From Naegleria gruberi (taxonomy: Eukaryota), in assembly GCA_000004985.1 (NCBI GenBank), contig GG738874.1: DNA of 64,000 nucleotides, one strand, 5' to 3'. The translations under genes were made by a program, and so were the position numbers. Of this stretch, positions 31,868-54,503 are shown one piece after another (within the stretch, counting starts at the first letter, position 1; each line of letters opens with the position of its first letter). The notes beneath the pieces were generated by a model. That model saw only the letters and a list, made by a program, of their open reading frames with translations. It did no database searches and was not told where the DNA came from.

Positions 31868-32812
31868 ATGCCAGAAAATAGTATTGATAGCACTCGTCTT
31901 GTTACCCTTCTCTTGGATGACTTTAATGATGAGAACAAGAATAATTATTTATTTTCCAAATTGAAGGAAACAATGCAGAGAAAACTTTTATTGTCAACCG
32001 AGAAATGGCTCCACTCTGTTGTCATTGACATTAATGGAAATTTTGATCGTTTCATTACTGATATTCATCACCCGAATCATTCCTTGTTGTGTTTTAGTCC
32101 AAGAGCTCTCAAATTTCACACTGAAAACAATGAAGCTGTTATCAAAAGATATCATCACAAGACAGGAGATCAATGGATTCATCCACAGCATGGTGTTTTA
32201 TTCGAAGGAGGGTATTTAAGTAATTCTTCAGTTCTGTATCCTCCAGTTGAGTTATTTAATCCAACTGGATTTACTGTATTATTGAGGGCATTTGCTGAGT
32301 CAACTGATAGAGGAGTAATAATCATGTTTGGACGAGGATACAGATGGTTTGGTATTGATCCATTTGGAATTAGTTTGAGCAATGGTGAAAAACATTTCGA
32401 GTTTGCAAATCAATTGAAATTAAGACAGTGGAATGATGTGTGGGTTTCGTATAATAATGTACAATCTCCTGGCACATTTAATGAATCATGTCGTGTCTTT
32501 ACTCACAAGAATTCGAATACAAAGAAGGAAATATTTTGCATTGTGAATGGAAATGAATACCAATTTGAAGTTCCAATCGATAATAGGGTTCTTTCTCTAA
32601 CAGATAATTATTATATAGAAGATGAAATGGGAATGGAATTTATTGATTATTCATGTGCTAATTGCTTTACAGGGTTTTTCTCCAGTTTAGTTTTATTCAA
32701 TCAAAGTTGTAATAGTTTTGATGACTTGAAATTGGTTGCCTCAAACTTTTTGGAAAATCATTCCAAACCAACTGAAACCTATCAAGAAGTATTAAAAGAT
32801 AAATCCAACTAA
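31868..32812 (+). CDS. Hypothetical protein; possible concanavalin-A-like / LamG beta-sandwich
   Basis: 314-aa ORF. The pattern FTVLLRAFAESTDRGVIIMFG...WNDVWVSYNN resembles LamG/pentraxin strands. This is weak. Confidence 0.35.
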   Translation: MPENSIDSTRLVTLLLDDFNDENKNNYLFSKLKETMQRKLLLSTEKWLHSVVIDINGNFDRFITDIHHPNHSLLCFSPRALKFHTENNEAVIKRYHHKTGDQWIHPQHGVLFEGGYLSNSSVLYPPVELFNPTGFTVLLRAFAESTDRGVIIMFGRGYRWFGIDPFGISLSNGEKHFEFANQLKLRQWNDVWVSYNNVQSPGTFNESCRVFTHKNSNTKKEIFCIVNGNEYQFEVPIDNRVLSLTDNYYIEDEMGMEFIDYSCANCFTGFFSSLVLFNQSCNSFDDLKLVASNFLENHSKPTETYQEVLKDKSN

Positions 32813-33442: not shown

Positions 33443-36400
33443 TTAAAGAATGAAAGAAATAAACAATAAGGCAATAGCCAAGATTAAATTGAAAAGAGGA
33501 GTAGTTAAAGGAGAGTTGTTAATTCTTGCTGATTGTTGGGGAATGGTGATTGAACTGGATACTGAAATCAGTTTTTCACAATTGGTTCCAATGAAACCAA
33601 TTGAACATTTGCATGTATCTGTTGAAATGCATTGACCATTTCCTGAACAAACATTTGAAGTATCATTTGACAATTTTCCATAACATTGAATGAGTTTACA
33701 TTCAGGCCCATACCAATCCTTATCACATTTGCACAAGTTAAAATCCATACATTGCCCATGTCCAGAACAAACATTTGGCGTGTCATTTGACAATTTTCCA
33801 AAACATTGAATGAGTTCACAATCAGGGCCATACCAATCCTTATTGCATTGACATGTATCTGTTGAAATACATTGACCATGTCCAGAACAAACATTTGAGG
33901 TATCTGACAATTTTCCAAAACATTGAATAAGTTTACAATCAGGGCCATACCAATCCTTATTGCATTGACATGTATCTGTTGAAATACATTGCCCATTTCC
34001 TGAACAAACATTTGACGTATCATTTGACAATTTTCCAAAACATTGAAATAGCTTACAATCAGGCCCATACCAATCCTTATCACATTTACACAAGTTAAAA
34101 TCCATACATTGCCCATGTCCAGAACAACCCGATGAATTAGAGATACCAAAGCAGATAGGAGTATTGCATGAAGAACCAACCCAAGTCGAATTACATTCAC
34201 ACAAATCTTTTCCGATACATTGACCATGAGAATTGCAAGTGAGTGGATCATTACTTTGAATTCCAAAACAAGAGAAGTATTCACAATTGGCTCCACTAAA
34301 ACCATTATCACAAGTACACTTTTCATAATCTAAACATTTACCCCTCGATTGACAAACAGCAGAATCATTACTTAACAAACCATTACATGTGGTAATGTTG
34401 CAAGTTTCTCCAATCCAACCAATTTCACATTCACACAAATTGACATCAACACAAGCACCTTGGGATGGTCCACCACAAGAATTATTACCAAACTTTCCAT
34501 AACAGATTGGTGTGCATATTAAGGAATTTTCACTCAGACGAAAACCATCTTCTTCACAGTATGGAACTGCCACCCTAACCAAGCCATTACGAAAGATACC
34601 AGTATCTGAATATATTAAATTTCCTTGTTCATCAATGAAGATAGAGTCTGGGCATGAAACAATAGTTTCATTTCCTTTCACATTGTCTCTCATCTCAAAA
34701 CCTGTCTGTCCATTACCAATAATTGTTGAGATATTTCCATCCAATGCTGAAATCTTTCTTATAGCATGGGCATCACAATCAGGAAAAATTACATCACCAA
34801 CTTTGGTTGTAATAACAGATGCAGGATTAATAATAGATGCCAAAAGAGCAGAACCACCATCTCCAGTTGATAGCACAATTCCATTTCCTGTAACAGCATG
34901 AATGATACCGTCTTTGCTTATTCTTCTAATTCTGTTATTTCCTATATCAGTGAAATAAATATCTCCATCCACACTCACTGTAATACCATATGGATTATTG
35001 AGTTTTGCCTTAATTGCCTCAATTTCATCATTGTTATAACCAGCATATATACCACCAGCAATAGTAGAAATAATTCCTGTATCATAAGAAATCTTTCTAA
35101 TATTATTAGCATAACAAGAATCTGTAAAATAAATGTCACCTCTCCATGATACTACCAATCTGTTTGGACATAAATAGGCTTCAGATGCCAATCCACCATC
35201 GCCCAAACCACCAGCTAGAGTACTAATAATTCCATTGGTAGATACTGTTCTGATATAAGCTCTGTCAATTATATATAAATCTCCATTTGGTCCAACCTTT
35301 GAGAATGATGGAACTACACTAGTCATGTTGGCAAGAACATCATTTTCGATATCAGTAGTATTTCCGTTTCCAGCAATAGTTGAAATAACACCATTAGAAA
35401 TCTTTCTTAATCTAGAATTATCTGAAATGTAAATGTCACCATTTTGATCTACTGAAACACTTGTTGGCTTATTGAGTTGTGCATCAGTTGCAAGAATATC
35501 ATCTCCATTGTAACCTTCAACTCCAGTACCACAAATAATTGAATTTTGTAAAGTGGAAAGTGTAATATTGTTCAAAGTGGAATCTGATAGTAATACTAAA
35601 AGATACAATCCATCATTTGTAAGTGCAACATCTAAAGGAGATGCTACATTTTGTACAATGTCAATTATGCCACTTGTCAAATTAACAACTCTAATTGCAT
35701 TATTACCATTACAAGCAACATATAACAATTCTTCATCAGAAGAGAAAGCCATACCATTAGGATTTGAAATTGCTGCCTCGATAGCATTACCTCCATCTCC
35801 ACTATAATCATCAACCCCAGTTCCACAAATTGTTGTGATATTTCCATTGAGTGATATCTTTTGAACTCGATGAGTATTTGTGGAAAAGTAAATTTCACCC
35901 ATCTTGCTAACAAGAACTCTAACTGGATTACCTATCATTGAATCAATAGCTCTTACGTTTTCTCCACTGTATCCTGCAACACCAGGTTTACCAGCAATGG
36001 TTGTTATAATTCCCAAAGTTGAAATCTTTCTAATACATGAGTTTAAACTGTCAGCAATAATCATTTCACTAGTGCTTGGTAAAAAGTCAATTCCAGTTGC
36101 TCTACTGATAACTGAATATTTGGCATTGTATCCATCACCTCCAAATTGACCATTGGTTCCAGCAACTCTTATCAATGTGCCATTCCAAAATAGTTTGTAA
36201 ATTGAATTACTGAATGAAACAAATAACTCTTTTGTAATTGGTGAAACGGAAAGTCCAATAATGCTCTGGATTGATTCGAGCGGATTAATAACGTTAGGGA
36301 CAATAGTAGAGTCATCTAGACGGTTACCGTTACCTGCAATAGTTGAAACAATTTGATTCTTGTCAACCTTTCTAATTCTGCAATCATGTGAAATATATGT

Positions 36401-37618
36401 AATGCCATCAATTGAAACAACTTGACTAATATAGCCCAAAGCTGCTTTTGATGCTGGCAACCCATCTCCTCCATATACATTTGTATTACCAATTACTGTT
36501 TCAATAATTCCAGTTTGTTTTGAAATTTTACGTATCTTCAAATTTCCAGTGTCAGTAACATAAACATCTCCATTTTTAGAAACTGAGATTCCTGTTGGAT
36601 AAGCAAATTTGGCATTGATTGCGGGACCACCATCACCATAATTACCACTATCCATACTTCCACCAATTGTAGAAATGTAACCGCTGCTATTGACCATTCT
36701 AATAACGTTATTATTATCAATAATGTATAATGTACCATCAGGAGTGGAAACGACACCAGTTGGAAAATTCAATGCTGCATTGGTTGCCAAGCCTCCATCA
36801 CCAGAGTATCCTACATCTCCATTACCTGCGATTGTTGAAATAATTGCAGTGCTGCCATCAATCTTTCTAATTCTATGATTAAGTGAATCACAAAAGTAAA
36901 TGTCACCATTAGTGGAATTGACAAATAATCCTGTTGGTGTGTTTATCCTGGCAGTGAGTGCTGGTCTATTATCACCTCCAAAATTATTGATACCATTACC
37001 ACAGATTGTTACAACTGCACCATTTGAGATCTTTCTAATTCTGTGATTATTCCTATCAGCAAAGATTACATCAGAATTTATCAAACCAATACCAAAAGGA
37101 CGTGAAACTTTTGATAACTTAGCTTGTCCATCATTAAATCCTGAAGAACCAGGAATGCCAGCAATTACACTTATCTTTCCACTCTTCATGTCAATTTTTC
37201 TCACCAAATCATTGTAATAATCTGAAAAGTAAATATCACCAGTTTCTTTTGATACTACAATGCCTCTAGGTTCATTAATTTGAGCAAGCAGAGCCAATTG
37301 ATTTGCGCCACCATCACTATAACTACCTGGTAATTCACCTGTACCAGCAATCGCTTTTATCACATTACCAGATGTTGCTTTAATGGTATTAGCATCTGTG
37401 AAAACTAGTTCATCTTGTTCATTGAAGAATAATGCCAAGGGACTGTCGAGGGAAAGAGATGTCAAGTTATAACCATCACCCAGTAAGTTTCCACCTGCAA
37501 ATGTACTGGTTGTGTATTTCACAGGTTTCAAGTTGACCGTTGTCTTGCACAACACCATGTTGTTGGTTAACAACAACAATATTAAACAAACAAAGACATT
37601 GAACCAGAGTGCTGTCAT
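33443..37618 (-). CDS. Large secreted or surface protein: signal peptide, many NHL-type beta-propeller repeats, a block of EGF / Dicty-type cysteine-rich repeats and a C-terminal hydrophobic anchor
   Basis: 1391-aa ORF. N-terminal signal MTALWFNVFVCLILLLL. NHL repeats recur (GDIYFSD, RIRKI, NGIAV). The cysteine module is C.G.G.C.....C.C...W.G..C. The C-terminal hydrophobic tail is LILAIALLFISFIL. Confidence 0.8.
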   Translation of the reverse strand: MTALWFNVFVCLILLLLTNNMVLCKTTVNLKPVKYTTSTFAGGNLLGDGYNLTSLSLDSPLALFFNEQDELVFTDANTIKATSGNVIKAIAGTGELPGSYSDGGANQLALLAQINEPRGIVVSKETGDIYFSDYYNDLVRKIDMKSGKISVIAGIPGSSGFNDGQAKLSKVSRPFGIGLINSDVIFADRNNHRIRKISNGAVVTICGNGINNFGGDNRPALTARINTPTGLFVNSTNGDIYFCDSLNHRIRKIDGSTAIISTIAGNGDVGYSGDGGLATNAALNFPTGVVSTPDGTLYIIDNNNVIRMVNSSGYISTIGGSMDSGNYGDGGPAINAKFAYPTGISVSKNGDVYVTDTGNLKIRKISKQTGIIETVIGNTNVYGGDGLPASKAALGYISQVVSIDGITYISHDCRIRKVDKNQIVSTIAGNGNRLDDSTIVPNVINPLESIQSIIGLSVSPITKELFVSFSNSIYKLFWNGTLIRVAGTNGQFGGDGYNAKYSVISRATGIDFLPSTSEMIIADSLNSCIRKISTLGIITTIAGKPGVAGYSGENVRAIDSMIGNPVRVLVSKMGEIYFSTNTHRVQKISLNGNITTICGTGVDDYSGDGGNAIEAAISNPNGMAFSSDEELLYVACNGNNAIRVVNLTSGIIDIVQNVASPLDVALTNDGLYLLVLLSDSTLNNITLSTLQNSIICGTGVEGYNGDDILATDAQLNKPTSVSVDQNGDIYISDNSRLRKISNGVISTIAGNGNTTDIENDVLANMTSVVPSFSKVGPNGDLYIIDRAYIRTVSTNGIISTLAGGLGDGGLASEAYLCPNRLVVSWRGDIYFTDSCYANNIRKISYDTGIISTIAGGIYAGYNNDEIEAIKAKLNNPYGITVSVDGDIYFTDIGNNRIRRISKDGIIHAVTGNGIVLSTGDGGSALLASIINPASVITTKVGDVIFPDCDAHAIRKISALDGNISTIIGNGQTGFEMRDNVKGNETIVSCPDSIFIDEQGNLIYSDTGIFRNGLVRVAVPYCEEDGFRLSENSLICTPICYGKFGNNSCGGPSQGACVDVNLCECEIGWIGETCNITTCNGLLSNDSAVCQSRGKCLDYEKCTCDNGFSGANCEYFSCFGIQSNDPLTCNSHGQCIGKDLCECNSTWVGSSCNTPICFGISNSSGCSGHGQCMDFNLCKCDKDWYGPDCKLFQCFGKLSNDTSNVCSGNGQCISTDTCQCNKDWYGPDCKLIQCFGKLSDTSNVCSGHGQCISTDTCQCNKDWYGPDCELIQCFGKLSNDTPNVCSGHGQCMDFNLCKCDKDWYGPECKLIQCYGKLSNDTSNVCSGNGQCISTDTCKCSIGFIGTNCEKLISVSSSITIPQQSARINNSPLTTPLFNLILAIALLFISFIL
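33630..34130. repeat. Tandem repeats of about 120 nt, near-identical at the nucleotide level, encoding EGF-like modules (CFGKLSNDTSNVCSGHGQCISTDTCQCNKDWYGPDCKLIQ)
   Basis: 4-5 consecutive copies of ...ccaaaacattgaat.agtt.acaatcagggccataccaatccttattgcattgacatgtatctgttgaaatacattg... are visible by eye. Confidence 0.7.
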
Positions 37619-39672: not shown

Positions 39673-40440
39673 ATGTCCTCAAACAATAATCAATCTAAAC
39701 TCGTCGTTATTACTGGAGCTAGCAGTGGAATTGGTGCTACAACTGCTGTCGAATTTGCTGCCAAAGGTTACAAACTTTTATTGTTGGCCAGAAGATTGGA
39801 CAGATTAGAGCAATTGGTAAAAGATTCAAGCAATAGTTTGTCATTTGAAAATACTGTTATTCATCAATGTGATATCATTCAAGTTGACCAAATTAAGGAA
39901 GGTATTGAAAAGGCCAAAAAGCAATTCAACATTTCTTCTGTTGATTGTTTAATTAACAATGCAGGTGTCATGTTGTTGCAACCACTCCTCACTCAACCAT
40001 TATCCGATCAAAATCAAATGTTTGACACAAATGTAAAAGGTCTCTTGAATGCATCACACGCTGTCCTCAAGGAAATGGTTGAAAACAAACAAGGCACCAT
40101 TATCAACATTAGTAGCATTGCGGGAACTAAATCTTTCCCTTCAGCAGCTGCCTACTGTGGTACCAAACATGCTGTTCATGCAATTTCTGAAACTTTGAGA
40201 AGTGAAGTTGCTGGTTCAAAAGTTAGAGTTGTGATTGTTTCTCCTGGCTTTACAGAGAGTGAATTGTTAGGTCACAATGAAAAGGAAAACTCAGAAGGAT
40301 TTGAAGCAATGGTCAACTCATGGGAGATGGGAGCTCTCAAATCCAAAGATATTGCTGATGCCATTCTTTATGCCTATGAAGCACCAAAGCATGTTTGCGT
40401 AAGAGAAATTAAATTAGCCCCAACAGAACAAACTGTTTAA
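39673..40440 (+). CDS. Classical short-chain dehydrogenase/reductase (SDR), intronless
   Basis: TGASSGIG cofactor motif, NNAG, catalytic S...YCGTKHAV (YxxxK). The length is 255 aa. Confidence 0.8.
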   Translation: MSSNNNQSKLVVITGASSGIGATTAVEFAAKGYKLLLLARRLDRLEQLVKDSSNSLSFENTVIHQCDIIQVDQIKEGIEKAKKQFNISSVDCLINNAGVMLLQPLLTQPLSDQNQMFDTNVKGLLNASHAVLKEMVENKQGTIINISSIAGTKSFPSAAAYCGTKHAVHAISETLRSEVAGSKVRVVIVSPGFTESELLGHNEKENSEGFEAMVNSWEMGALKSKDIADAILYAYEAPKHVCVREIKLAPTEQTV

Positions 40441-40830
40441 ACAATAAACCTTATTTAAATTCTCAAATAACAGTTACTTCTCCCAACAGCAAGTGAACTG
40501 ATCATGCGACGAGGAATTAATATTTTCCAATTTATTCAAGTCACCAACCTTCAACTGTATGTCAACATTGTTAATTCATTCCCTATCGCATTTCCATCAT
40601 CCAAAAAACCGTAATTCCTTTCCATACTGATATGGTTATGAGGGAAATTTATCATCCCAAAAAAAAGCGCCTCTGTTCACCCTTGATGGCTACGTAGCTC
40701 TTTTGTTTTCGGAAGGTGAACGAGACATCATACCACCATACCATGTATTCAACAGCCATAATTGTATGCACTTTCAACAATGGTGGTGGTCTTGTGGCGT
40801 TCACAGTTGCAATCTTCATTCAAAAGAAAA

Positions 40831-42632
40831 ATGTTTAGAAATCTAGATAGATTCTCTGTTAAATTAATTGCTTCGATATTATTCTTGTTGACTATCACTT
40901 CATTGGTTGTGAATGTTTCAGCTGATACTACCATCACAGAATTAGCTTCGGATGTAGATGCTGGTTGGACTTTGATAAATGGTGCTCTCGTAATGTGTAA
41001 GTATATATTTCAATTGACCCAAAGTCTAACCTTCCATTAAATTGAATTAATAGTTATGCAGGCTGGGTATGTTAAATATTGGAAATGTAATTTCTGAAAT
41101 AATCTAGTTTCGCATTCCTGGAAGCTGGTGGTGTTCGTTCTAAAAACGTTGCCAATATCTTATTGAAAATTGTCATGTCTGTTGCCATTTCAACAATGGC
41201 TTGGTTCTGTATTGGTTATGGAATTGCTTTTGGTGACCAACTTACAGAAACCAGAAATGGGTTCTTTGGAAATTCTGGATTTTTCATGCTTGGAGGAGGA
41301 GAGTCAAACTCACAATTCTTTTTCCAATGGAGTTTTGCTGCCGTTGCCAGTTCGAGTAAGTGTTTCTTGTGAATTTTGATCTGACATGTGCTGTTCCAAT
41401 TAACATCTGTAGTTGTAAGTGGTGCCGTGGCTGAAAGAATGAATTTATCTGCATTCTTCATGTGTTCATTCTTAATGACTGCCTTCATTTATGCACCTGT
41501 TGTCCATTGGATTTGGTCCTCGACAGGTTGGTTGTCAGGATTCAATAAGGTATTTTTCAGAGTGGGAAATGTTGGTGTGGCTGACTTTGCTGGTGGTGTC
41601 GTTGTTCACGTAAGTATTTAGAATTTTGCTGCTTTCTTAATTGTTATAGTTGACTGGAGGAATTTGTGGCCTCGTTGGAGCTGTAATGGTTGGTCCAAGA
41701 ATTGGAAGATTCGTCAATGGAAAAGCTGTCAAGATCGAAGGACACAACAAGACATTAGTTTTGTTGGGTGGCTTGATTTTGTGGTTTGGTTGGGTAAGTA
41801 TTCTCTTCAGTATTTTGATGGCTTACTCTTTAAGTATGGATTTAACGCTGGATCATCCACTCTTAGTGGTGGTTTATCTAAAATTGCTGGTTTTGCCAGT
41901 ACCAACACAACTATTGCTGGTGCTGCTGGAGCCATGATGTGCATGTTGTGGTCTTGTCTCCAAAGTGGACAATATGACCTTACTGAAAGTTTGAACGGTT
42001 GCTTGGCAGGTTGTGTCGCAATCACACCAATATGTGCCTTTGTTGAGCCATGGGCTGCTGTTTTGATTGGTGCCACAGGTGCTATGGTTTATATTGGTGG
42101 AGCCTGGTTATTAGAGGTTTTGCATGTTGATGATCCAGTGAGCGCCGTTCCTGTTCATGCATTCTGTGGTGCTTGGGGATTGTTCTTGGGTGGATTATTC
42201 TCCACAAAATCAAGGTAAGTAAGCTAGTTCATTAATTCCTTAATATCTTCTAGTATTGCTCTCTATTTTGGTCTTGATTCCTCTTCGACATACTATGGTT
42301 TGTTCTACAGTATGAATTGGGAATTGTTGGGTGTGAATCTTTTTGCTATTGCTGTTGTAACTGTTTGGGTAACCTTCGCTTCAGTAATCATGTTCTTCTT
42401 CATTGATATCACCATTGGTTTGAGAGTTCCTCCACAAGATGAATTAGTTGGTTTGGATCACAAGTATGGTGGTGTTGCCTACACCAATGAAGATATTCAT
42501 CATAGTTATGGTTTTGGAGGTGAGTCTGGAACTGAACATTCCTTAACACGTTCAGCCTACAAGACTGCCCGATCCGTCAAGACTAGCAATACTACCTCTC
42601 AACGTTCAAATGGTTCTTCCTCTCGCAAATAG
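40831..42632 (+). CDS. amt: Ammonium transporter (Amt/MEP family), paralogue 1, in 8 exons including a 13-nt micro-exon at 41054-41066
   Basis: Spliced product ...DAGWTLINGALVMFMQAGFAFLEAGGVRSKNVANILLKIVMSVAISTMAWFCIGYGIAFGD...VSGAVAERMNLSAFFMCSF...LTGGICGLVGAVMVGPRIGRF...HAFCGAWGLFLGGLFS... Donors are GTAAGT/GTATGT. Exon ends were mapped at 40996, 41066, 41355, 41609, 41793 and 42214; the last exon is 42254-42632. Confidence 0.85.
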
Positions 42633-43066
42633 AGTAGCAATATTATATCCTCTCTAATATTCGTCATCAATTTCCTTCTCCCTTACTACCTATCCTTTTA
42701 CTTCCCAAGTTTTTGTATTTTTAATAGTAAGTTACAAAGCCTCTCATATTTCATCATGTACAAATACTTTGCAACTTTGTAGAATTGCCTTACATCATTT
42801 CTAACATTTCTTTTATCAGCCTTGATATTAGCCTTTCAGTGATTCGCTGTGTTTGCGTACTTTGTCATTTACCGCTTTTTTCTTTAAGAAAGACTTCCAA
42901 TCTTATTATGGCTGTGCGCGCAAATTAATCCAAAAGAAAAAATGTCTCACGTAACTTGGTGTCTCTACGTGGGAGAAGCAACATTACAACATTCTTTCAG
43001 TCTTCATCAAAACAATAATGCTAATGGATTGTCATTTCCGAGTATAAAATTTAGAAAGGACACTAT

Positions 43067-45022
43067 ATGGTTTTGTATGATAATAATGATGATGATTTTG
43101 GAATGAAAATTGTGGAATGTTCGGGACAGACTGAAGGATCATCGACAACTATAACAACAACAGAATTGGCTAGTAGTGTGGATGCTGGTTGGACTTTGAT
43201 GAATGGCGCATTAGTGATGTGTAAGTATGGGTGGTTATTGATTTTAGTTGATGGTTTTGATAGTTATGCAGGCTGGGTAAGTTTAGGAAATTATATCGGA
43301 TTCGAATAATGTCATGATGATAGTTTTGCATTTCTTGAAGCTGGTGGTGTTAGGTCGAAAAATGTGGCCAATATTTTGCTGAAAATTGTAATGTCAGTTT
43401 CCATCTCGACAATGGCTTGGTTCTGTATTGGTTATGGAATTGCTTTTGGTGACCAAAAGACTGAGACGAGAAATGGCTTCTTTGGAAATGCATCCTTCTT
43501 CTTATTGGGTGGAAATGAAGATAATAATTATTTTTTCTTTCATTGGAGTTTTGCTGCAGTGACCAGTTCAAGTAAGTATGAGAGTTCAATAGCAAGTTAA
43601 TGACCTATTTGAAAAGTTGTGAGTGGTGCTGTTGCTGAAAGAATGAATTTGTCTGCATTCTTCATGTGTTCATTCTTAATGACAGGATTCATTTATGCAC
43701 CAGTTGCTCACTGGATTTGGTCTACAACTGGTTGGTTGTCAGGATTCAATGAAACCATGTTCAGACTCGGCTATGTTGGAGTTTCAGATTATGCTGGTGG
43801 TGTTGTTGTCCATGTAAGTATCTGTTATAGCTCAATAACAATTCACAATTCAAGTTGACTGGTGGTATTTGTGGCCTCGTTGGAGCCATTATGGTTGGTC
43901 CAAGAATTGGAAGGTTTGTTAATGGTAAAACTATGAAAATTGAAGGTCACAACAAGACTCTTGTCTTGTTGGGCGGTTTGATTTTGTGGTTTGGTTGGGT
44001 AAGTATTATTTCACTAATTATCATTACAATAATCAATAACAAGTATGGATTCAATTCGGGCTCAGTATTAAAATTGAGTGGTGGAATGTCAAAGATTGCC
44101 AGCTTTGCAAGTACCAATACAACACTTGCAGGTGCAGCAGGTGCCCTTATGTGTATGTTGTGGTCTTGTTTCCAAAATGGGCAGTAAGTAGTTCAATAAG
44201 GTTTACCCTCTCTAATATATCACAAAACTCTACTAAGGTATGACCTTACTGAGAGCTTGAATGGTTGCTTGGCTGGCTGCGTTTCAATCACGCCTATTTG
44301 TGCCCTCATTGAACCATGGGCCTCTGTGATTGTAGGATCAAGTGGAGCAATTGTTTACATTATAGGAACATGGTTGCTTGAATTCTTTCATGTTGATGAC
44401 CCAGTGAATGCAGTACCAGTGCACGCATTTTGTGGAGCTTGGGGATTATTGATGGGAGGATTATTTGCCACTAAGCAACAGTAAGTGTTTCAATTTATCC
44501 AAATCTCCTAACAATGTCCGAACAAATAATTTCCAATTAATTGTTTTCAATAATTAATGTGATTATGAAAGAATGATTCTCCTATATTCTCTTCCAGCCG
44601 ATAACCCATACTATGGAGTATTTTATAGTTATAATTGGGAATTGTTAGGAATTAATTTGTTTGCCATAATTATTGTAACCATTTGGGTTACTTTCTCATC
44701 CGTAATCATGTTCTTTTTAATTGATATCACAATTGGTTTGAGAGTTCTTCCACAAGATGAACTAGTTGGTTTGGATCACAAGTATGGTGGAATGGCCTAT
44801 AACAATGAAGACAATGTCCACATTTTCAGTGCTTCCTCATCAGAAAATACTCTAGCCAAACAAGCTTACAAAACAGTTCAATTCGTCCAACAACAAAAGA
44901 AATACTCAAACACGACTACAGAACTATCAGAACAATTAGATTCCCAACACTCTGTCGGATCATTTAATAGCAAACCTCATCGTCCTTACCAACATCAACA
45001 ACAACAACAACAGTGGAGGTAA
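43067..45022 (+). CDS. amt: Ammonium transporter (Amt/MEP family), paralogue 2; same exon plan, with the micro-exon at 43264-43276
   Basis: Same motifs and intron positions as paralogue 1 (GALVM|FMQAG|FAFLEAGGVRSKNVANILLKIVMSVSISTMAWFCIGYGIAFGD...). The C-terminus is Q-rich. Confidence 0.85.
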
Positions 45023-45344
45023 ATTTTTGTCGTTGGTTCTTTCGTGCTGATTGAAGTTTAGATTGTTCAGTTTAGCAAAGTTTCTACACAAAGAAGGCCA
45101 CAAAAGAACTTGTTTATGTTGAAAATTGAAAGATAGCACCAATCGGTCAAGAAGAATTCGTTCCCGCACATTTTTGCAAAGTGTGAACTGAACATTGGAA
45201 ACCAAAAACAAACAACTTGCCAACAATCGATTGGTTCACCCTTGCCCACCACCACCAACAACAATAATGGATGATGTTGAGTGCCACAATCTTCATTATT
45301 TCGCTTTTTATCATACAACAACAAAAAGAAATAATTAACAACAA

Positions 45345-47232
45345 ATGATAGAGAGAACGAGAAGAAATAATTATTTGGCTGTTGGACTTACTGTGGTAGT
45401 ACTGTTGCTGACGTGCTTTGAGCAGCAAGTAAAAGCACAAACATTATCGGCAGCAGATGTAGATATTGGTTGGACATTGTTGAACGGAGCCTTGGTTATG
45501 TGTAAGTTTTGCTCATCCACACATTGATTGTTGACACATTTATTGTGGCCATTATTGAATTCTCGGTGATTGTTCTTGTAACATTTTAAATCATTTGATG
45601 AAATCAAATCCTAAATAATTAATTAATTTGGACTTGAATAGTTATGCAAGCAGGGTGAGTGATATAATTTAATCCATTATTTCTAATTTGAGCTGTTATA
45701 AAGATTTGCATTTCTTGAAGCTGGTGGTGTTCGTTCTAAAAACGTTGCCAACATCTTATTGAAGATTGTCATGTCTGTTGCCATTTCAACAATGGCTTGG
45801 TTCTGTATTGGTTATGGAATTGCTTTTGGAGATAATGCAATGAGTGAAACTAGAAATGGATTCTTTGGCGTTTCGTCCTTCTTTTTATTGGGAGCTAATG
45901 AATCTCATCATATTTTCTTCTTTCAATGGAGTTTTGCTGCTGTTGCCAGTTCAAGTAAGTTTAGGCTTTTTGAATAATTTTTGACCTATTCGAATAGTTG
46001 TGAGTGGTGCCGTCGCTGAAAGAATGAATTTATCTGCATTCTTCATGTGTTCATTCTTAATGACTGCCTTTATCTATTCTCCAGTTGCTCACTGGATTTG
46101 GTCTACAACTGGTTGGTTATCAGGATTCAATAAGACTTTATTCAGAATTGGTACTGTCGGTGTCACTGATTATGCTGGTGGTGTAGTTGTTCACGTAAGT
46201 ATTTCGATATTCCATGAACATTCCAACATAATTGTGTAAATAGTTGACTGGCGGAATTTGTGGCCTTGTTGGAGCCATTATGGTTGGTCCAAGAATTGGA
46301 AGATTCGTCAATGGAAAAGCTGTCAAGATTGAAGGACACAACAAGACTCTTGTCTTGCTAGGAAGTTTCATTTTGTGGTTTGGTTGGGTAAGTATTATTT
46401 CAATAACTTGTAAATTCTAATTATGGAATAGTATGGTTTCAATGGTGGTTCAACTACTGCATTGAGTGGTGGCTTGTCCAAGATTACAAGTTACGCCAAT
46501 ACTAACACAACCATTGCTGGTGCTGCAGGTGCTCTCATGTGTATGTTTTGGTCTTGTCTTCAAAGTGGACAATATGACCTTACTGAAAGTTTGAACGGTT
46601 GTTTGGCAGGTTGTGTCTCAATTACACCAATTTGTGCCTTTGTTGAGCCATGGGCTGCTGTTCTGGTTGGTGCCACAGGTGCTATGGTTTATATTGGAGG
46701 TACTTTATTATTGGAATATTTACATATTGATGACCCTGTAAGTGCTGTTCCTGTTCATGCATTCTGTGGTGGATGGGGATTGTTCTTGGGAGGTTTCTTT
46801 GCCACAAAGGATTTGTAAGTACTTGTTCTCAAATATTAATACTGACCTAATGTTTCTCAAAATAGACTCATACTCTTCTATGGATTGGACAGTACCGATT
46901 TTGTGACCTATGGTGTCTTGTACAGTTTGAATTGGGAAATTTTGGGTGTTAACATGCTCGGTATTGCAGTTACCACCATTTGGGTTGCATTCTCTTCAGT
47001 AATCATGTTCTTCTTCATTGACATTACCATTGGTCTGAGAGTTCCTCCACAAGATGAATTAGTTGGCTTGGATCACAAGTATGGTGGTGTTGCCTACAAT
47101 AACGAAGATGTTCACCACTATGGTTTCTCAAACAGTGCCTCAGAGAGTACACTCGCTAACTCTGCCTATAAATCAGCCAGAAGTGCTGGTAGTAAAAGAT
47201 CTCACAGAAGAAAATCAGTTGCTAAACCATAA
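45345..47232 (+). CDS. amt: Ammonium transporter (Amt/MEP family), paralogue 3; same exon plan, with the micro-exon at 45642-45654
   Basis: Same motifs and intron positions. The micro-exon reads ttatgcaagcagg, which differs from the other two copies only by synonymous changes. Confidence 0.85.
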
Positions 47233-47901
47233 TTGTCATTGTGACAATACGAAACAATTCGATTTATCTGATTATGTATTATAAACTAATCATTCTTAAT
47301 ACTCAATATCGATTAATAGTCAATTACCATATGCAATTTTACAACAATACTTTACAATATCAATATGAAACTCTTTACTAGTAACTTAATCTTTTTGGAT
47401 TGACCTCATGGTCAGCACAAACTCCATAAACAATTTCAACAAATTATTGATCGCATAACATTGATTTCAACTCTTGATTATTTAAATTGTCAACTCTCCA
47501 TATTTTTTAGGAACTTTCTTAACCAATTGCTTTCAATAATCATCTTCCTCAATCGGACGAAAGTCAGAAAAAGAGTTTTACAAAAAATGAGCATTTTCAC
47601 CCAGAGCGAAGATGGCTATTATTATCAATCTCTTTATTTTGTATTGAGTTTCGAGTATTTAATCTGAAACAGTTTTTCAAAGTAAAGAAGAAAAAAAACG
47701 AAACTCTGGTGAAACTATTTTGTGGATTAGTGACCATCATTCTTTTGAGTACTATTAACGCAGTAATTGAACAATAACTTTCTAATACCTCTCCGAAACA
47801 CCGTTCATTTTAAAAGGAACATTGTTAACGAACTCATTTTTCAAACAATTAGAACATTAAGTTAAGAATCTAGACGAAACTATCAAAAAAAAGGAGAAAC
47901 A

Positions 47902-49199
47902 ATGCCCAATAATCAGCAGTTTAGAGCAATTCCTTCATCTTCATCACGAGCACTCGACATTTCTTCATCTACAGATCAAATACTTAACGGAGATTCGAAT
48001 AACAAGTTTCCAACAAGAGATTGTACCTCCTCAAACAGTACATCCACAACAACTGAAGATTATTCAGGGGAAGATGGTGCTGACTATCAATATGAAGATG
48101 GAGCTCTTCAAGAAGAAACAGAAGAAACTAATGGAGACGAAACTTATTCTAATCTTGATTTGAATACTGTCAAGTTATTTGTTGGACAAATTCCATACTC
48201 TTATGGTGAAGATAATTTATATCCATTATTTTCACAATTTGGTCCAGTTGCTGAAATTGTTGTGATTAGAGACAGATTTACATTCAAGTCAAGAGGATGT
48301 GCTTTCGTCTCATTTCGTAGTAAGCAAGATGCGGACACATGCATTAGAGAACTCAATCAAAGATTGAAACTGCCACCTGTAAGTATATTTGATATGTGAT
48401 AATTTTAACTTATTCGAATGGTTTCAATTGAACACCTTTTTTATTCGAAACTTAGTTAAATACCCCTCTCAGAGTTAAATATGCCTACACTGAGCAACAA
48501 TTAGATATTGTTAATGATAATTTTGTAAATAATGCTCCAAATCTAACTACTTCATCCTCGCCTAATGATTCCAATAGTGAAAAATCTCAAGATTTGACAA
48601 TTGCCTCAAATTTCCTCTCCTGTCTCAATATAGATAAGTATGAAATTGGCGTGCCTCATCCAGAAAACAAGCTCTTTATCAGAAATATTCCAAAGAATGT
48701 TACTGAAGATGAGCTCTCAACTCTATTCGAAAGTTTTGGCGAAATTCTTGACGTTGTCGTATTGAGAACGACCATTCATACTTCAAAGGGATGTGGTTTT
48801 ATCAAATTTACCAATTCAGAATCAGCTGATATGGTCATTAACACCTTCAAGAGAGAAATCATTTCACCAATTCAAGAATATCAACAAGGAGCTCAACAAG
48901 AAGGAACAACTATTGGTGGACCTTCTAATCAAAGATTGGTCGAGTTGACTAACAAGCTCCTAGAGAGTAGTTTCCTTATGAAGGGAGCTATCACTCCTCT
49001 ATTGGTTAGATATGCTGATAAGGATTATGTACCAAGTCAATCAACACAAGATGAACATGTCTATAATTCAACAACTACTGGTGGTCATGATTATCACTCT
49101 ACAAATGGAAATCATGGAGGTCATTACAATCCAAGAAGAAGGAAATCTTATCCATTGTCTTATCATAATAATAATAATAATAGAAGAGGATCCTATCAT
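47902..49199 (+). CDS. CELF/Bruno-like RNA-binding protein with two RRMs. Exon 1 is 47902-48378, the intron is 48379-48455, and exon 2 runs from 48456. The 3' end is lost in the assembly gap.
   Basis: RRM1 is LFVGQIPYSYGEDNLYPLFSQFGPVAEIVVIRDRFTFKSRGCAFVSF. RRM2 is KLFIRNIPKNVTEDELSTLFESFGEILDVVVLRTTIHTSKGCGFIKF. The in-frame join is ...LKLPP|LNTPLRVKYA... Confidence 0.6.
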
Positions 49200-49991
49200 N
49201 NNNNNNNNNNNNNNNNNNNNNNNNNNNNNNNNNNNNNNNNNNNNNNNNNNNNNNNNNNNNNNNNNNNNNNNNNNNNNNNNNNNNNNNNNNNNNNNNNNNN
49301 NNNNNNNNNNNNNNNNNNNNNNNNNNNNNNNNNNNNNNNNNNNNNNNNNNNNNNNNNNNNNNNNNNNNNNNNNNNNNNNNNNNNNNNNNNNNNNNNNNNN
49401 NNNNNNNNNNNNNNNNNNNNNNNNNNNNNNNNNNNNNNNNNNNNNNNNNNNNNNNNNNNNNNNNNNNNNNNNNNNNNNNNNNNNNNNNNNNNNNNNNNNN
49501 NNNNNNNNNNNNNNNNNNNNNNNNNNNNNNNNNNNNNNNNNNNNNNNNNNNNNNNNNNNNNNNNNNNNNNNNNNNNNNNNNNNNNNNNNNNNNNNNNNNN
49601 NNNNNNNNNNNNNNNNNNNNNNNNNNNNNNNNNNNNNNNNNNNNNNNNNNNNNNNNNNNNNNNNNNNNNNNNNNNNNNNNNNNNNNNNNNNNNNNNNNNN
49701 NNNNNNNNNNNNNNNNNNNNNNNNNNNNNNNNNNNNNNNNNNNNNNNNNNNNNNNNNNNNNNNNNNNNNNNNNNNNNNNNNNNNNNNNNNNNNNNNNNNN
49801 NNNNNNNNNNNNNNNNNNNNNNNNNNNNNNNNNNNNNNNNNNNNNNNNNNNNNNNNNNNNNNNNNNNNNNNNNNNNNNNNNNNNNNNNNNNNNNNNNNNN
49901 NNNNNNNNNNNNNNNNNNNNNNNNNNNNNNNNNNNNNNNNNNNNNNNNNNNNNNNNNNNNNNNNNNNNNNNNNNNNNNNNNNNNNNNNNNN
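49200..49991. other. Assembly gap (792 N)
   Basis: A literal run of n. Two convergent genes both run into it. Confidence 0.95.
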
Positions 49992-50464
49992 ATTTCATTT
50001 TCCGATTTCTTCTTGTATACCTTTGATGGAAGACCAATGACAGTTTCCTTTTCCTTATTCCACACTCTGAATTTGCTAAATACTTCTGGATTGCACAAAT
50101 CAGGCATTTGAAGCCCAATTCCTGATGTATATAATGCTCGCAGTGATTCCTTTTGCAATCTCAAGTTTGGTGTAAGTTTTGGATGTTTTTTATCAAATTC
50201 TTTATCGGAATGTTCCAAATATTTATCAATCAATTCAATCATTTCCTCCTCAGTACAACAAGTTTTCTTTACTCTAATATCTGCACCGAAAATTTGTTCG
50301 TGAATATAAAGATATCTCTTGAATGTTGGCACAACTTTAGTATCTCTGATTTGTTTTTGTTCCTTCTTTTTAAAGTCGTGAATACCCTGCTTCTTCATAT
50401 CGATAGCCTTTCGGGATTTTGGATGAACTGGTTTGGTGGTTGTGGCGTTTGCTCCTTTGGTCAT
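49992..50464 (-). CDS. tma16: TMA16 (translation-machinery-associated protein 16) homologue. The C-terminus is lost in the gap.
   Basis: MTKGANATTTKPVHPKSRKAIDMKKQGIHDFKKKEQK matches the TMA16 N-terminus HPYSRKAAQI..HKQEKKEK. EEMIELIDKYLEH matches TMA16 ACELIERYLNR. GLQMPDLCNPEVFSKFRVWN matches TMA16 [20 protein letters not shown]. The ATG is at 50464. Confidence 0.55.
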
Positions 50465-53504: not shown

Positions 53505-54503
53505 ATGACCCTATTAGATTCCGCCAATTTATTCTCCTCCTTTTCCATTCATACATTCAATACCACTGCCGCCAATGATTCCTCATCTGCTGCCTACTCA
53601 CCAACTCCCGCCAATTCTCGTGCTTGTTTAGCTTGTCGAATGGCCCATAAATCATGTGATAGAGCCAAACCTGCATGTTCGAGATGTATTTCGAGAGGCA
53701 TTGCTCATCTGTGCTGTGAACCATCGACTAAGAAGAGAGGACGACCAAGAAAATGGAAAGATTCTGAAAAACAAGACTCACCTCAAGAACAATATGAAGA
53801 AGAAATTAATTTCAATGCTAATAGTTCACCTCAACCTTCAAATAATGAATCATCATTGAGTCATAGTGAATCTGGAGTTTCGTCTCCAAGTGAGTTGAGT
53901 GCTCAATTGGGAGGTAATTCATCTCCACTCGTTTATAATGTTATTCCATCAAGTACATGCAAGTCACCTGTCGAAGAAGCCTTACTGACAGAAACTTTGA
54001 AAAAGACACAATCTAAAAAACTCAAGTTTATCAAGATTATGAACTATAACCCAAATCATAGAGAAACTTTCTCACCAAGATTTACAATTACTTCCTCAGA
54101 AAAGAAACATACTCTTTCCACACCTCAAGATAATCAACCTTCTCAAAAGAAGAGAAAGACCAAGTCAACTAATCCAATTCTTTCCTCTACTAACTACCAA
54201 ACCTCAACTGTCAGCCAACCAAGTCAACCACTTGTTGAAATTAATGTGAAATCTGTTCAATCCTCTCCTGTAACATCACCAAGTTCAGTTCCTACCCAAT
54301 TTTCTCCAATTCCTTCACCAACAGTTATATATTCGCAAACACCTTTCACTCAACCAACATTTATCCCAAACAATTCTCAATTTTACTATCCTACTGCCAT
54401 TTCTACTAACCAACCTCGTCATTGTGATGAGGGGCGAATTGTCAACAACAATCAAGTGAAATTACCTTCAATTTATAGCTTGCTTTCATCGCTCCAAGAA
54501 TAA
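53505..54503 (+). CDS. Zn(II)2Cys6 binuclear-cluster (GAL4-type) transcription factor
   Basis: ACLACRMAHKSCDRAKPACSRCISRGIAHLC fits C-x2-C-x6-C-x6-C-x2-C-x8-C. A basic linker (KKRGRPRKWK) follows, then a long S/T/P/Q-rich tail. The ORF-track start at 53460 is a TTG; the first ATG is at 53505. Confidence 0.6.
   Translation: MTLLDSANLFSSFSIHTFNTTAANDSSSAAYSPTPANSRACLACRMAHKSCDRAKPACSRCISRGIAHLCCEPSTKKRGRPRKWKDSEKQDSPQEQYEEEINFNANSSPQPSNNESSLSHSESGVSSPSELSAQLGGNSSPLVYNVIPSSTCKSPVEEALLTETLKKTQSKKLKFIKIMNYNPNHRETFSPRFTITSSEKKHTLSTPQDNQPSQKKRKTKSTNPILSSTNYQTSTVSQPSQPLVEINVKSVQSSPVTSPSSVPTQFSPIPSPTVIYSQTPFTQPTFIPNNSQFYYPTAISTNQPRHCDEGRIVNNNQVKLPSIYSLLSSLQE

What the first reader, a model, noticed from the sequence alone, without database searches (positions are those of the whole stretch)
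40831..47232. Three tandem Amt ammonium-transporter paralogues with identical intron positions, including a conserved 13-nt micro-exon
Three full Amt/MEP genes lie head to tail within 6.4 kb. Each has the same 8-exon plan. Exon 2 in each is a 13-nt micro-exon (TTATGCAGGCTGG, or TTATGCAAGCAGG in copy 3) that encodes the invariant FMQAG of the first Amt signature; its ends sit in phase 1. The ORF track misreads every copy because it reads through the introns. This is a lineage-specific tandem expansion of a transporter tied to ammonia sensing, the key morphogen of dictyostelid development. The micro-exon is an annotation trap that automated pipelines usually miss.
Basis: seen in the sequence. 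Interest (0 to 1): 0.55.

Follow-up and report, generated by a model that had tools for sequence, protein, structure and literature searches.

The report
Three tandem Naegleria ammonium-transporter genes
The window comes from the amoeboflagellate Naegleria gruberi, not a slime mould, and carries three intact, side-by-side ammonium-transporter genes that share a conserved 13-base micro-exon: a real feature, but an ordinary gene-family expansion.

Summary
The core observation is confirmed. Three intact Amt-family genes lie head to tail at 40831-47232. Each has a 13-nt exon 2 at the stated coordinates, flanked by AG and GT, and it is needed to keep the reading frame and encode FMQAG.

Two details are wrong. 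Only copy 2 has 8 coding exons; copies 1 and 3 have 7. The micro-exon starts in phase 1 but ends in phase 2.

The biological context is also wrong. Five neighbouring ORFs are exact matches to Naegleria gruberi RefSeq proteins. The best homologues are single-copy genes of N. fowleri and N. lovaniensis (79% identity) and of Willaertia magna (67%). This is a heterolobosean, not a dictyostelid.

N. fowleri has the same 13-nt micro-exon and all six shared introns. Annotators there, and in N. lovaniensis, already included it in their models.

The three copies group together in trees, sit at the orthologous locus, keep every pore residue and evolve under purifying selection (omega about 0.12). Synonymous divergence is high (dS 0.7-1.1), so the triplication is old. 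Copies 1 and 3 share an intron loss inside a short probable gene-conversion tract.

Verdict: a real, correctly located, ordinary lineage-specific tandem expansion. Interest is low.

The parts
40831..42632 (+). Amt copy 1 (Ng1). It has 7 coding exons: 40831-40996, 41054-41066, 41108-41355, 41413-41609, 41650-41793, 41835-42214 and 42254-42632. The product is 508 aa with an N-terminal signal-like hydrophobic segment.
   Evidence: Manual splicing gives an open frame, and all introns are GT..AG of 39-57 nt. PF00909 match E 1.5e-113. An alternative in-frame ATG lies at 40780.
41054..41066 (+). 13-nt micro-exon of copy 1, TTATGCAGGCTGG. It encodes (F)MQA(G), entering in phase 1 and leaving in phase 2.
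43067..45022 (+). Amt copy 2 (Ng2). It has 8 coding exons: 43067-43220, 43264-43276, 43324-43571, 43617-43813, 43855-43998, 44044-44183, 44238-44480 and 44572-45022. The product is 529 aa, with no N-terminal hydrophobic segment and a Q-rich C-terminal tail.
   Evidence: PF00909 match E 4.4e-114. The extra intron 44184-44237 (GQ|YD, phase 2) is shared with N. fowleri.
43264..43276 (+). 13-nt micro-exon of copy 2, TTATGCAGGCTGG.
45345..47232 (+). Amt copy 3 (Ng3). It has 7 coding exons: 45345-45501, 45642-45654, 45704-45954, 45998-46194, 46244-46387, 46432-46814 and 46866-47232. The product is 503 aa with an N-terminal signal-like segment.
   Evidence: PF00909 match E 1.9e-111.
45642..45654 (+). 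13-nt micro-exon of copy 3, TTATGCAAGCAGG. It is identical in sequence to the N. fowleri micro-exon.
44184..44237 (+). Intron 6 of copy 2. It is absent from copies 1 and 3 and present at the same position and phase in N. fowleri.
41964..42098 (+). Approximate low-divergence tract between copy 1 and copy 3. The partner in copy 3 is about 46564-46698. It spans alignment codons 311-355 (my conversion from alignment columns, approximate) and covers the site of the lost GQ|YD intron. Probable gene-conversion tract.
   Evidence: There are 6 differences in 135 nt between copies 1 and 3. Over the narrower codon span 316-347, copies 1 and 3 differ at 6 sites and copies 1 and 2 at 23. Permutation test P = 0.001.

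Best explanation
The region holds three functional paralogous genes of Naegleria gruberi that encode Amt-type ammonium channels or transporters.

Origin: they arose by tandem duplication of a single ancestral gene at its original locus. This most likely happened after the N. gruberi lineage split from the N. fowleri/N. lovaniensis lineage, but long ago. The branching order is probably ((copy 1, copy 3), copy 2).

Gene structure: the ancestral Naegleria gene was already intron-rich and already had exon 2 as a 13-nt micro-exon. That exon lies between a phase-1 intron (also present in Willaertia) and a phase-2 intron (seen only in Naegleria). It must be spliced in to keep the frame and to encode the FMQAG part of the first transmembrane helix. 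Copies 1 and 3 later lost the GQ|YD intron. A short gene-conversion tract over that site suggests the intron-less state passed from one copy to the other.

Function (inferred): each protein should form the usual trimeric 11-helix pore, which recruits NH4+ at the Trp/Ser site and conducts it past the Phe gate and twin histidines. Naegleria oxidises amino acids and lipids and lacks a complete urea cycle, so the likely physiological role is ammonium export or sequestration. The diverged N-termini, C-terminal tails and promoters suggest the three copies differ in regulation or location. Gene structure, orthology and residue conservation are shown; transport direction and sub-functionalisation are inferred.
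For: Organism: five window ORFs are exact matches to N. gruberi proteins.

Family: PF00909 matches positions 2-399 of 399 with E about 1e-113. PDB hits are Af-Amt1 at 2e-54 and E. coli AmtB at 1e-49.

Pore residues: F103, F107, W148, D160, H168, W212, F215, S219, T273, D310 and H318 are conserved in all three copies. Hydropathy shows about 11 hydrophobic segments.

Selection: core-domain omega is 0.11-0.15.

Micro-exon:
- Exact coordinates and splice sites are confirmed.
- It is required for the frame.
- It is an island of identity within unalignable introns.
- The same 13-nt exon is present in N. fowleri.
- The FMQAG motif is general among homologues, including intron-less bacterial ones.

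Orthology and copy number:
- N. fowleri has one gene at its locus, N. lovaniensis contributes one protein to the same 90% cluster, and W. magna has one gene per locus.
- Neighbouring genes of the N. fowleri and W. magna loci match window genes at 53.6, 57.2-58.1 and 58.7-59.1 kb.
- Monophyly of the three copies has 84% (protein) and 91% (nucleotide) bootstrap. Copy 1 + copy 3 has 93-99% on all or third codon positions, but only 20-22% on protein or first and second positions.

Introns and conversion: the intron presence matrix is and the conversion signal.

Physiology: ammonia transporters are upregulated in mouse-passaged N. fowleri and the urea cycle is incomplete (PMC8296547).
Against: - No transcript data were available, so the splice junctions and start codons are inferred from frame, homology and conservation only.
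- dS between copy 2 and the other copies (1.09) is as large as dS to N. fowleri (1.08-1.26). The duplication could therefore predate the species split, and the grouping of the three copies could be partly a gene-conversion artefact.
- The trees are NJ trees with few taxa.
- The physical order 1-2-3 does not match the inferred ((1,3),2) relationship, so an extra rearrangement or conversion is needed.
- No N. gruberi Amt protein appeared in the protein searches, so the public models could not be compared.
- Transport direction, substrate form and localisation are untested.
Confidence: 0.85

Rival explanations
1. One reading: a dictyostelid-specific tandem expansion of amtA/B/C-type genes, linked to ammonia sensing as a developmental morphogen.
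For: Only general resemblance: AT-rich DNA (33.5% GC), short GTAAGT introns, Q-rich tails, and an Amt family that also exists in Dictyostelium.
Against: Flanking ORFs are 100% identical to Naegleria gruberi RefSeq proteins on a 401,612-bp scaffold. The top hits are Naegleria and Willaertia at 67-79% identity, and no dictyostelid protein is among the best 120 hits. Microsynteny is with N. fowleri and W. magna.
Confidence: 0.01
2. The three copies are ancient paralogues that predate the N. gruberi / N. fowleri split. N. fowleri and N. lovaniensis then lost two copies. The apparent grouping of the N. gruberi copies would result from intermittent gene conversion.
For: - dS between copy 2 and copies 1 and 3 (1.09) is no smaller than dS to N. 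fowleri (1.08-1.26).
- Conversion tracts are detectable.
- Introns and intergenic DNA are unalignable among the copies.
- Third-position bootstrap for monophyly is only 76%.
Against: - Monophyly has 84-91% bootstrap on protein and on all codon positions.
- All three copies lack the VH|AF intron (alignment column 375) that N. fowleri has. One loss before the triplication is the simplest explanation.
- Detected conversion tracts are short (about 135 nt or less), so they are unlikely to drive the whole-gene signal.
- W. magna also has a single gene at the locus.
Confidence: 0.13
3. One or more copies are decaying or non-functional duplicates, or the micro-exon is skipped in some transcripts to give non-productive mRNAs.
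For: - Copy 2 has the longest branch, lacks the N-terminal signal-like segment and has an unusual Q-rich tail.
- The donor sites after the micro-exon are weaker in copy 1 (GTATGT) and copy 3 (GTGAGT) than the usual GTAAGT.
Against: - All three copies have open frames after splicing.
- All eleven mapped pore and structural residues are kept.
- Omega is 0.11-0.15 for every pair.
- All splice sites are canonical.
Confidence: 0.04
4. The triplication is an assembly artefact: one gene, or allelic haplotypes, laid out in tandem.
For: The scaffold contains assembly gaps elsewhere, at 19313-19362 and 49200-49991.
Against: - The copies are only 73-75% identical in coding DNA.
- Their introns, lengths and intergenic regions differ, and one intron differs in presence.
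- There is no gap inside 40.4-47.3 kb.
Confidence: 0.01

Closest known systems
Naegleria fowleri FDP41_013479 (XP_044564978, UniProt A0A6A5C449, 'Ammonium transporter') and N. lovaniensis C9374_013302
   Same: These are orthologues, 79% identical to copy 1. N. fowleri has the same 13-nt micro-exon (TTATGCAAGCAGG) and all six shared intron positions and phases. The neighbourhood genes match, and all pore residues are the same.
   Different: Both are single-copy. N. fowleri has 9 exons: it keeps the GQ|YD intron (as copy 2 does) and has one more intron at VH|AF, and its introns are longer (64-206 nt). The orientation relative to the neighbouring genes is inverted.
Willaertia magna ABK040_012834 / ABK040_008638
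   Same: This is a heterolobosean orthologue with 67% identity. It shares the phase-1 intron immediately before FMQAG and the phase-1 intron at SS|IV. The locus also matches window genes at 53.6 and 58.7-59.1 kb.
   Different: Exon 2 is 29 nt rather than 13 nt, because the downstream intron sits 16 nt further on in phase 0. The other six introns are at different positions. Two nearly identical copies lie on different contigs rather than in tandem.
AMT1-type ammonium transporters of green algae and plants (e.g. Volvox carteri VOLCADRAFT_75428)
   Same: Identity is about 43-45% over the whole domain, with similar signature blocks: FMQAGFA.LE/CAG.VR.KN and LWFGWYGFN.
   Different: No intron position is shared with Volvox. 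Subfamily placement was not tested here with a reference AMT1/AMT2/MEP phylogeny.
Solved prokaryotic Amt proteins: Archaeoglobus fulgidus Amt-1 (2B2F) and E. coli AmtB (1XQE, 2NMR)
   Same: The fold family is the same by sequence (E 2e-54 and 1e-49). The twin-His, Phe gate, W148/S219 site and D160 are conserved.
   Different: The prokaryotic genes are intron-less. The Naegleria proteins have longer loops and 50-80 aa cytoplasmic C-terminal tails.
Dictyostelium discoideum AmtA/AmtB/AmtC
   Same: Same protein superfamily, and three paralogues in an amoeboid protist (from general knowledge, not tested here).
   Different: It belongs to a different eukaryotic supergroup. No dictyostelid sequence was among the best 120 hits, and the window is N. 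gruberi. The developmental ammonia-sensing rationale does not transfer.

Membership tests
Amt/MEP/Rh ammonium transporter family (Pfam PF00909) | Full-length match to the family profile above the curated threshold | tested here: met
   All three spliced proteins score 373-382 bits against a cut-off of 23.2, covering profile positions 2-399 of 399.
Amt/MEP/Rh ammonium transporter family (Pfam PF00909) | Pore twin histidines (AmtB H168 and H318) | tested here: met
   H208/H364 in copy 1, H204/H361 in copy 2 and H206/H363 in copy 3.
Amt/MEP/Rh ammonium transporter family (Pfam PF00909) | Phe gate (F107, F215), the periplasmic NH4+ site (W148, S219) and the structural D160 | tested here: met
   All are conserved in the three copies and in the N. 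fowleri and W. magna orthologues.
Amt/MEP/Rh ammonium transporter family (Pfam PF00909) | Eleven transmembrane helices forming a trimer | tested here: inconclusive
   A crude Kyte-Doolittle scan shows about 11 hydrophobic segments, plus an N-terminal signal-like one in copies 1 and 3. No structure prediction or oligomer test was run.
Amt/MEP/Rh ammonium transporter family (Pfam PF00909) | Ammonium or methylammonium transport activity | not testable with these tools
   This needs yeast complementation or electrophysiology.
AMT1-like (electrogenic, plant/algal-type) subfamily rather than MEP/AMT2 | Groups with AMT1-type sequences in a phylogeny that includes MEP/AMT2 references | tested here: inconclusive
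   The best non-heterolobosean hits are algal AMT and Chloroflexi Amt at 43-47% identity. Fungal MEP2 structures score lower (134 bits) than Af-Amt1 (188 bits). No reference-based subfamily tree was built.
Coding micro-exon | An internal exon of 30 nt or less, bounded by canonical AG and GT sites | tested here: met
   The exon is 13 nt in all three copies. Acceptors are TAG; donors are GTATGT, GTAAGT and GTGAGT.
Coding micro-exon | Inclusion is required for the reading frame and for conserved residues | tested here: met
   Skipping it gives a stop at codon 71-75. It supplies FMQAG, which is conserved in most of the best 120 homologues, including bacterial ones.
Coding micro-exon | Conserved in orthologues while the flanking introns diverge | tested here: met
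   N. fowleri has the same 13-nt exon, and the introns are unalignable.
Coding micro-exon | Junctions seen in transcripts | not testable with these tools
   No N. gruberi RNA-seq or EST resource was available. Support is indirect: published orthologue gene models contain the residues.
Lineage-specific tandem gene array | Adjacent copies on the same strand with no intervening genes, at the locus where relatives have one gene | tested here: met
   Searches show the arrangement. The relatives have a single gene per locus and microsynteny holds.
Lineage-specific tandem gene array | The copies are each other's closest relatives | tested here: met
   NJ bootstrap is 84% on protein and 91% on codon nucleotides. 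The support is moderate, with few taxa and no ML analysis.
Dictyostelid amtA/amtB/amtC genes | Encoded in a dictyostelid genome and orthologous to D. discoideum amt genes | tested here: not met
   The window is N. gruberi. The nearest homologues are heterolobosean, with no dictyostelid among the best 120.

The most novel reading that the evidence does not exclude
The most novel reading not excluded concerns intron loss. The GQ|YD intron would have been removed once and then copied between the non-adjacent copies 1 and 3 by a gene-conversion tract of about 135 nt. This would make the array a small natural example of conversion-mediated spread of intron loss. In addition, the 13-nt exon has been kept between introns of only 41-57 nt across the genus. 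That would imply that Naegleria's spliceosome reliably defines such an exon by intron definition alone. The three copies, with their unrelated promoters and tails, may also have divided the uptake, export and vacuolar roles that a single gene performs in the pathogen N. fowleri.
Probability: 0.3. Interest if true: 0.3.

Novelty: new member of a known kind. Interest (0 to 1): 0.2.

Why it matters
The finding matters mainly for annotation and comparative genomics.

- It gives clean gene models for three N. gruberi ammonium transporters.
- It shows that the non-pathogenic laboratory species has three copies where the brain pathogen N. fowleri has one. That single N. fowleri gene belongs to a class reported as upregulated in mouse-passaged amoebae (PMC8296547).
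- It documents a 13-nt coding micro-exon conserved across the genus, in a window where most other long genes read as uninterrupted ORFs.

It opens no long-standing question. A specialist would not be surprised by a tandem expansion of a nutrient or waste transporter, or by Amt-family membership.

Tried and rejected
1. Looking for the public N. gruberi Amt models.
- No N. gruberi protein was among the best 120 hits.
- My full-length models and N-terminally truncated variants are not in the 15-billion-protein collection.
- The N. gruberi contig is not on record in the gene-position index.
- Accession order shows only that four + strand model slots (EFC43275-78, D2VIJ0-3) lie between the SDR gene (39673) and the gene at 53505. 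That fits three Amt genes plus the RRM gene. No paper cites those accessions.

2. A metagenome scan for Naegleria-like tandem loci, to date the triplication. It returned only bacterial-type, intron-less Amt genes of 41% identity or less.

3. Shared promoter motifs upstream of the three copies and the orthologues. Nothing longer than trivial A/T-rich 8-mers was shared.

4. Rfam scan of 38-50 kb. No RNA family was found.

5. Ancient-intron hypothesis. Volvox AMT shares no intron position, and a 47%-identical Logan homologue is intron-less.

6. An upstream exon that would give copy 2 a signal peptide. I found no in-frame splice solution by eye and rejected the idea.

7. Literature. No paper describes the N. 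gruberi Amt array or its micro-exon.
Full report
**What is in the sequence**

Reading 40300-47800 and the mechanical ORF list shows three runs of Amt-like ORF fragments on the + strand. They are interrupted by short AT-rich segments that begin GTAAGT and end AG. I spliced each copy by hand and checked the frames by script.

- Copy 1: 40831-40996, 41054-41066, 41108-41355, 41413-41609, 41650-41793, 41835-42214, 42254-42632. 7 exons, 508 aa.
- Copy 2: 43067-43220, 43264-43276, 43324-43571, 43617-43813, 43855-43998, 44044-44183, 44238-44480, 44572-45022. 8 exons, 529 aa.
- Copy 3: 45345-45501, 45642-45654, 45704-45954, 45998-46194, 46244-46387, 46432-46814, 46866-47232. 7 exons, 503 aa.

All 19 introns are GT..AG. 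They are 39-140 nt long with 20-35% GC, against 39-42% GC in the coding sequence. No further Amt sequence exists elsewhere in the window.

**The micro-exon**

The extended pattern AG-TTATGCARGCWGG-GT occurs three times in the window, against zero in 100 shuffles.

Exon 1 ends one base into a codon (phase 1). The 13 nt supply TT-ATG-CAG-GCT-GG, and exon 3 supplies the last base of the Gly codon (phase 2). The protein therefore reads ...GALVM-FMQAG-FAFLEAGGVRSKN.

- Leaving the exon out shifts the frame and gives a stop at codon 71-75 in every copy.
- Retaining any intron gives a stop. The one exception is the 45-nt intron 5 of copy 2, which would insert 15 residues in the middle of LWFGW|YGFN.
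- In an alignment of the exon 1 to exon 3 region, the micro-exon and its splice sites are an island of identity in otherwise unalignable intron sequence.
- The FMQAG motif is general in the best 120 homologues, including intron-less bacterial genes.

The exon is therefore real and obligatory, short of transcript proof.

Only copy 2 has eight coding exons. The micro-exon also does not end in phase 1.

**Which organism**

Exact look-ups of neighbouring intron-less ORFs return Naegleria gruberi proteins on a 401,612-bp scaffold:

| Window ORF | N. gruberi protein |
|---|---|
| 28855-29961 | EFC43270 |
| 31868-32809 | EFC43273 |
| 39673-40437 | EFC43274 |
| 53505-54500 | EFC43279 |
| 57237-58616 | EFC43280 |

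The best homologues of copy 1 are N. fowleri FDP41_013479 (79% identity) and Willaertia magna ABK040_012834 (67%). N. lovaniensis C9374_013302 is in the same 90% cluster as the N. fowleri protein. The next hits drop to 47% or less, from algae, other protists and Chloroflexi. No dictyostelid is among the best 120.

The window is therefore N. gruberi (Heterolobosea). The 'ammonia as dictyostelid morphogen' rationale does not apply.

**Family membership and likely function**

- All three proteins match Pfam PF00909 end to end with E about 1e-113.
- They match solved Amt structures: Af-Amt1 at 2e-54 and E. coli AmtB at 1e-49. Fungal MEP2 is weaker.
- Mapped onto AmtB numbering, F103, F107, W148, D160, H168, W212, F215, S219, T273, D310 and H318 are conserved in all three copies and in the N. 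fowleri and W. magna orthologues.
- A crude hydropathy scan gives about eleven hydrophobic segments. Copies 1 and 3 also have an N-terminal signal-like segment; copy 2 does not.
- Core-domain dN/dS is 0.11-0.15 for all pairs.

I infer three functional ammonium channels or transporters of the usual trimeric type.

The direction of transport is not shown. Naegleria has an incomplete urea cycle, and ammonia transporters were reported as upregulated in mouse-passaged N. fowleri (PMC8296547). Export or sequestration of metabolic ammonium is therefore the most plausible role.

The N-termini, the C-terminal tails (Q-rich in copy 2) and the upstream regions are unrelated among the copies. This is compatible with divergent regulation or localisation, which is an inference.

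**Origin of the array**

N. fowleri has one gene at its locus (L001), and W. magna has one per locus, on two contigs. Genes flanking the N. fowleri and W. magna loci match window genes at 53.6-54.1, 57.2-58.1 and 58.7-59.1 kb. The N. gruberi array therefore sits at the orthologous locus, with an inversion relative to N. fowleri.

- A protein NJ tree groups the three copies with 84% bootstrap, as sister to N. fowleri + N. lovaniensis.
- A codon-nucleotide NJ tree gives 91% for that grouping.
- Copy 1 + copy 3 has 93% support on all codon positions and 99% on third positions. Support is only 20-22% on protein or on first and second positions.

The duplication is old:

| Pair | dS (core domain) |
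|---|---|
| copy 1 - copy 3 | 0.69 |
| copy 2 - copy 1 or 3 | 1.09 |
| any copy - N. fowleri | 1.08-1.26 |

Third-position identity over the full coding sequence is only 54-61%. Repeats are confined to exons.

An origin before the species split, followed by loss in the N. fowleri clade, cannot be excluded. I give it about 13%.

**Intron history**

I mapped the annotated N. fowleri and W. magna proteins onto their loci and placed all introns on one alignment.

- Six positions and phases are shared by the three N. gruberi copies and N. fowleri, including both introns that flank the micro-exon.
- The GQ|YD intron (phase 2) is present in copy 2 and N. fowleri only.
- The VH|AF intron is present in N. 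fowleri only.
- W. magna shares just two positions: the phase-1 intron before FMQAG and the SS|IV intron. Its exon 2 is 29 nt, because the next intron lies 16 nt further downstream.
- Volvox AMT shares no position, and a 47%-identical homologue is intron-less.

So the 13-nt exon is a Naegleria-level feature, built on an older intron.

**Gene conversion**

There is no wholesale homogenisation, but copies 1 and 3 show patches of near identity:

- codons 76-105: 98% nucleotide identity, 93% at third positions
- codons 316-345: 94% nucleotide identity, 90% at third positions

A Sawyer-type permutation of polymorphic sites gives P = 0.001 for copies 1-3, P = 0.002 for copies 2-3 and no signal for copies 1-2.

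Between codons 311 and 355, copies 1 and 3 differ at 6 of 135 nt. Over the narrower span 316-347, copies 1 and 2 differ at 23 sites. This tract covers the site of the intron missing from copies 1 and 3. Either these two copies are true sisters that inherited one loss, or the intron-less state was copied from one to the other. The data do not separate the two.

**The 'annotation trap' claim**

Two independent N. fowleri annotations (KAF0980265, CAG4717415), the N. lovaniensis annotation and the W. magna annotation all contain LVM-FMQAG-FAFLEAG. Current pipelines did not miss it there.

For N. gruberi itself I could not see the public models. None appeared in the homology search. My spliced proteins and truncated variants are not in the collection, and the contig is not in the gene-position index. 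Accession order leaves exactly four + strand model slots between the SDR gene and the gene at 53505, consistent with three Amt models plus the RRM gene. This is indirect, so the correctness of the 2010 models remains open.

**Comparison with the known, and verdict**

These are new members of a well-known family. The orthologue is already labelled 'Ammonium transporter' in N. fowleri, with the micro-exon included. I found no paper that describes the N. gruberi triplication or the micro-exon.

The finding is real and its coordinates are accurate. It is ordinary biology, and the feature that gave it most of its claimed interest (dictyostelid ammonia signalling) is a misattribution. Interest 0.2.

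Noticed in passing
It would add MVVVLWRSQLQSSFKRK before MFRNLDRF. Which start is used is unknown.
   Followed up: partly
window 43067-43220 and 44860-45022: Copy 2 lacks the N-terminal signal-like hydrophobic segment seen in copies 1 and 3 and in the N. fowleri and W. magna orthologues. It also carries a longer, Q-rich C-terminal tail (…QHQQQQQQWR). I found no upstream exon that would supply a signal peptide.
   Followed up: partly
L002 10207-10235 (Willaertia magna): The W. magna orthologue has a 29-nt exon 2 (FMQAGFAFLE) instead of 13 nt. The downstream intron sits 16 nt further 3' and in phase 0. This could be intron sliding or an independent insertion.
   Followed up: partly
window 53.6-59.1 kb versus L001 1-4091 and L002 6377-9124: Microsynteny with the N. 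fowleri and W. magna Amt loci covers a Zn-cluster-like gene, an F-box/LRR gene and an RGS/PX gene. In N. fowleri the genes lie upstream on the opposite strand, which implies an inversion. The EMC6 gene next to Amt in both relatives is absent from this window.
   Followed up: partly
window 19313-19362 and 49200-49991: There are runs of N (50 and 792 nt), which are assembly gaps. The second interrupts the RRM-like gene at about 48594-50111 and an opposite-strand ORF.
   Followed up: no
window 33443-37618 (- strand): A 1391-aa intron-less ORF has NHL-like repeats and a C-terminal run of near-identical cysteine-rich units of about 40 aa (…CSGHGQCISTDTCQCNKDWYGPDCKLIQCFGKLS…). It is a recent internal tandem repeat within a surface-protein-like gene.
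   Followed up: no
window 10486-15111 (- strand): A 1541-aa coiled-coil ORF ends in a long (EERKKE)n-type low-complexity repeat.
   Followed up: no
whole window: Most long genes in the window are single uninterrupted ORFs of up to 1541 aa. The Amt genes carry 6-7 introns in about 1.5 kb of coding sequence, so they are unusually intron-dense for this neighbourhood.
   Followed up: no
P0002 / P0125 (Willaertia magna contigs of 356,900 and 1,292,540 bp): W. magna has two Amt proteins that differ at only a few residues (visibly C2F near the N-terminus). They lie on different contigs and could be haplotypes, homeologues or a dispersed recent duplicate.
   Followed up: no
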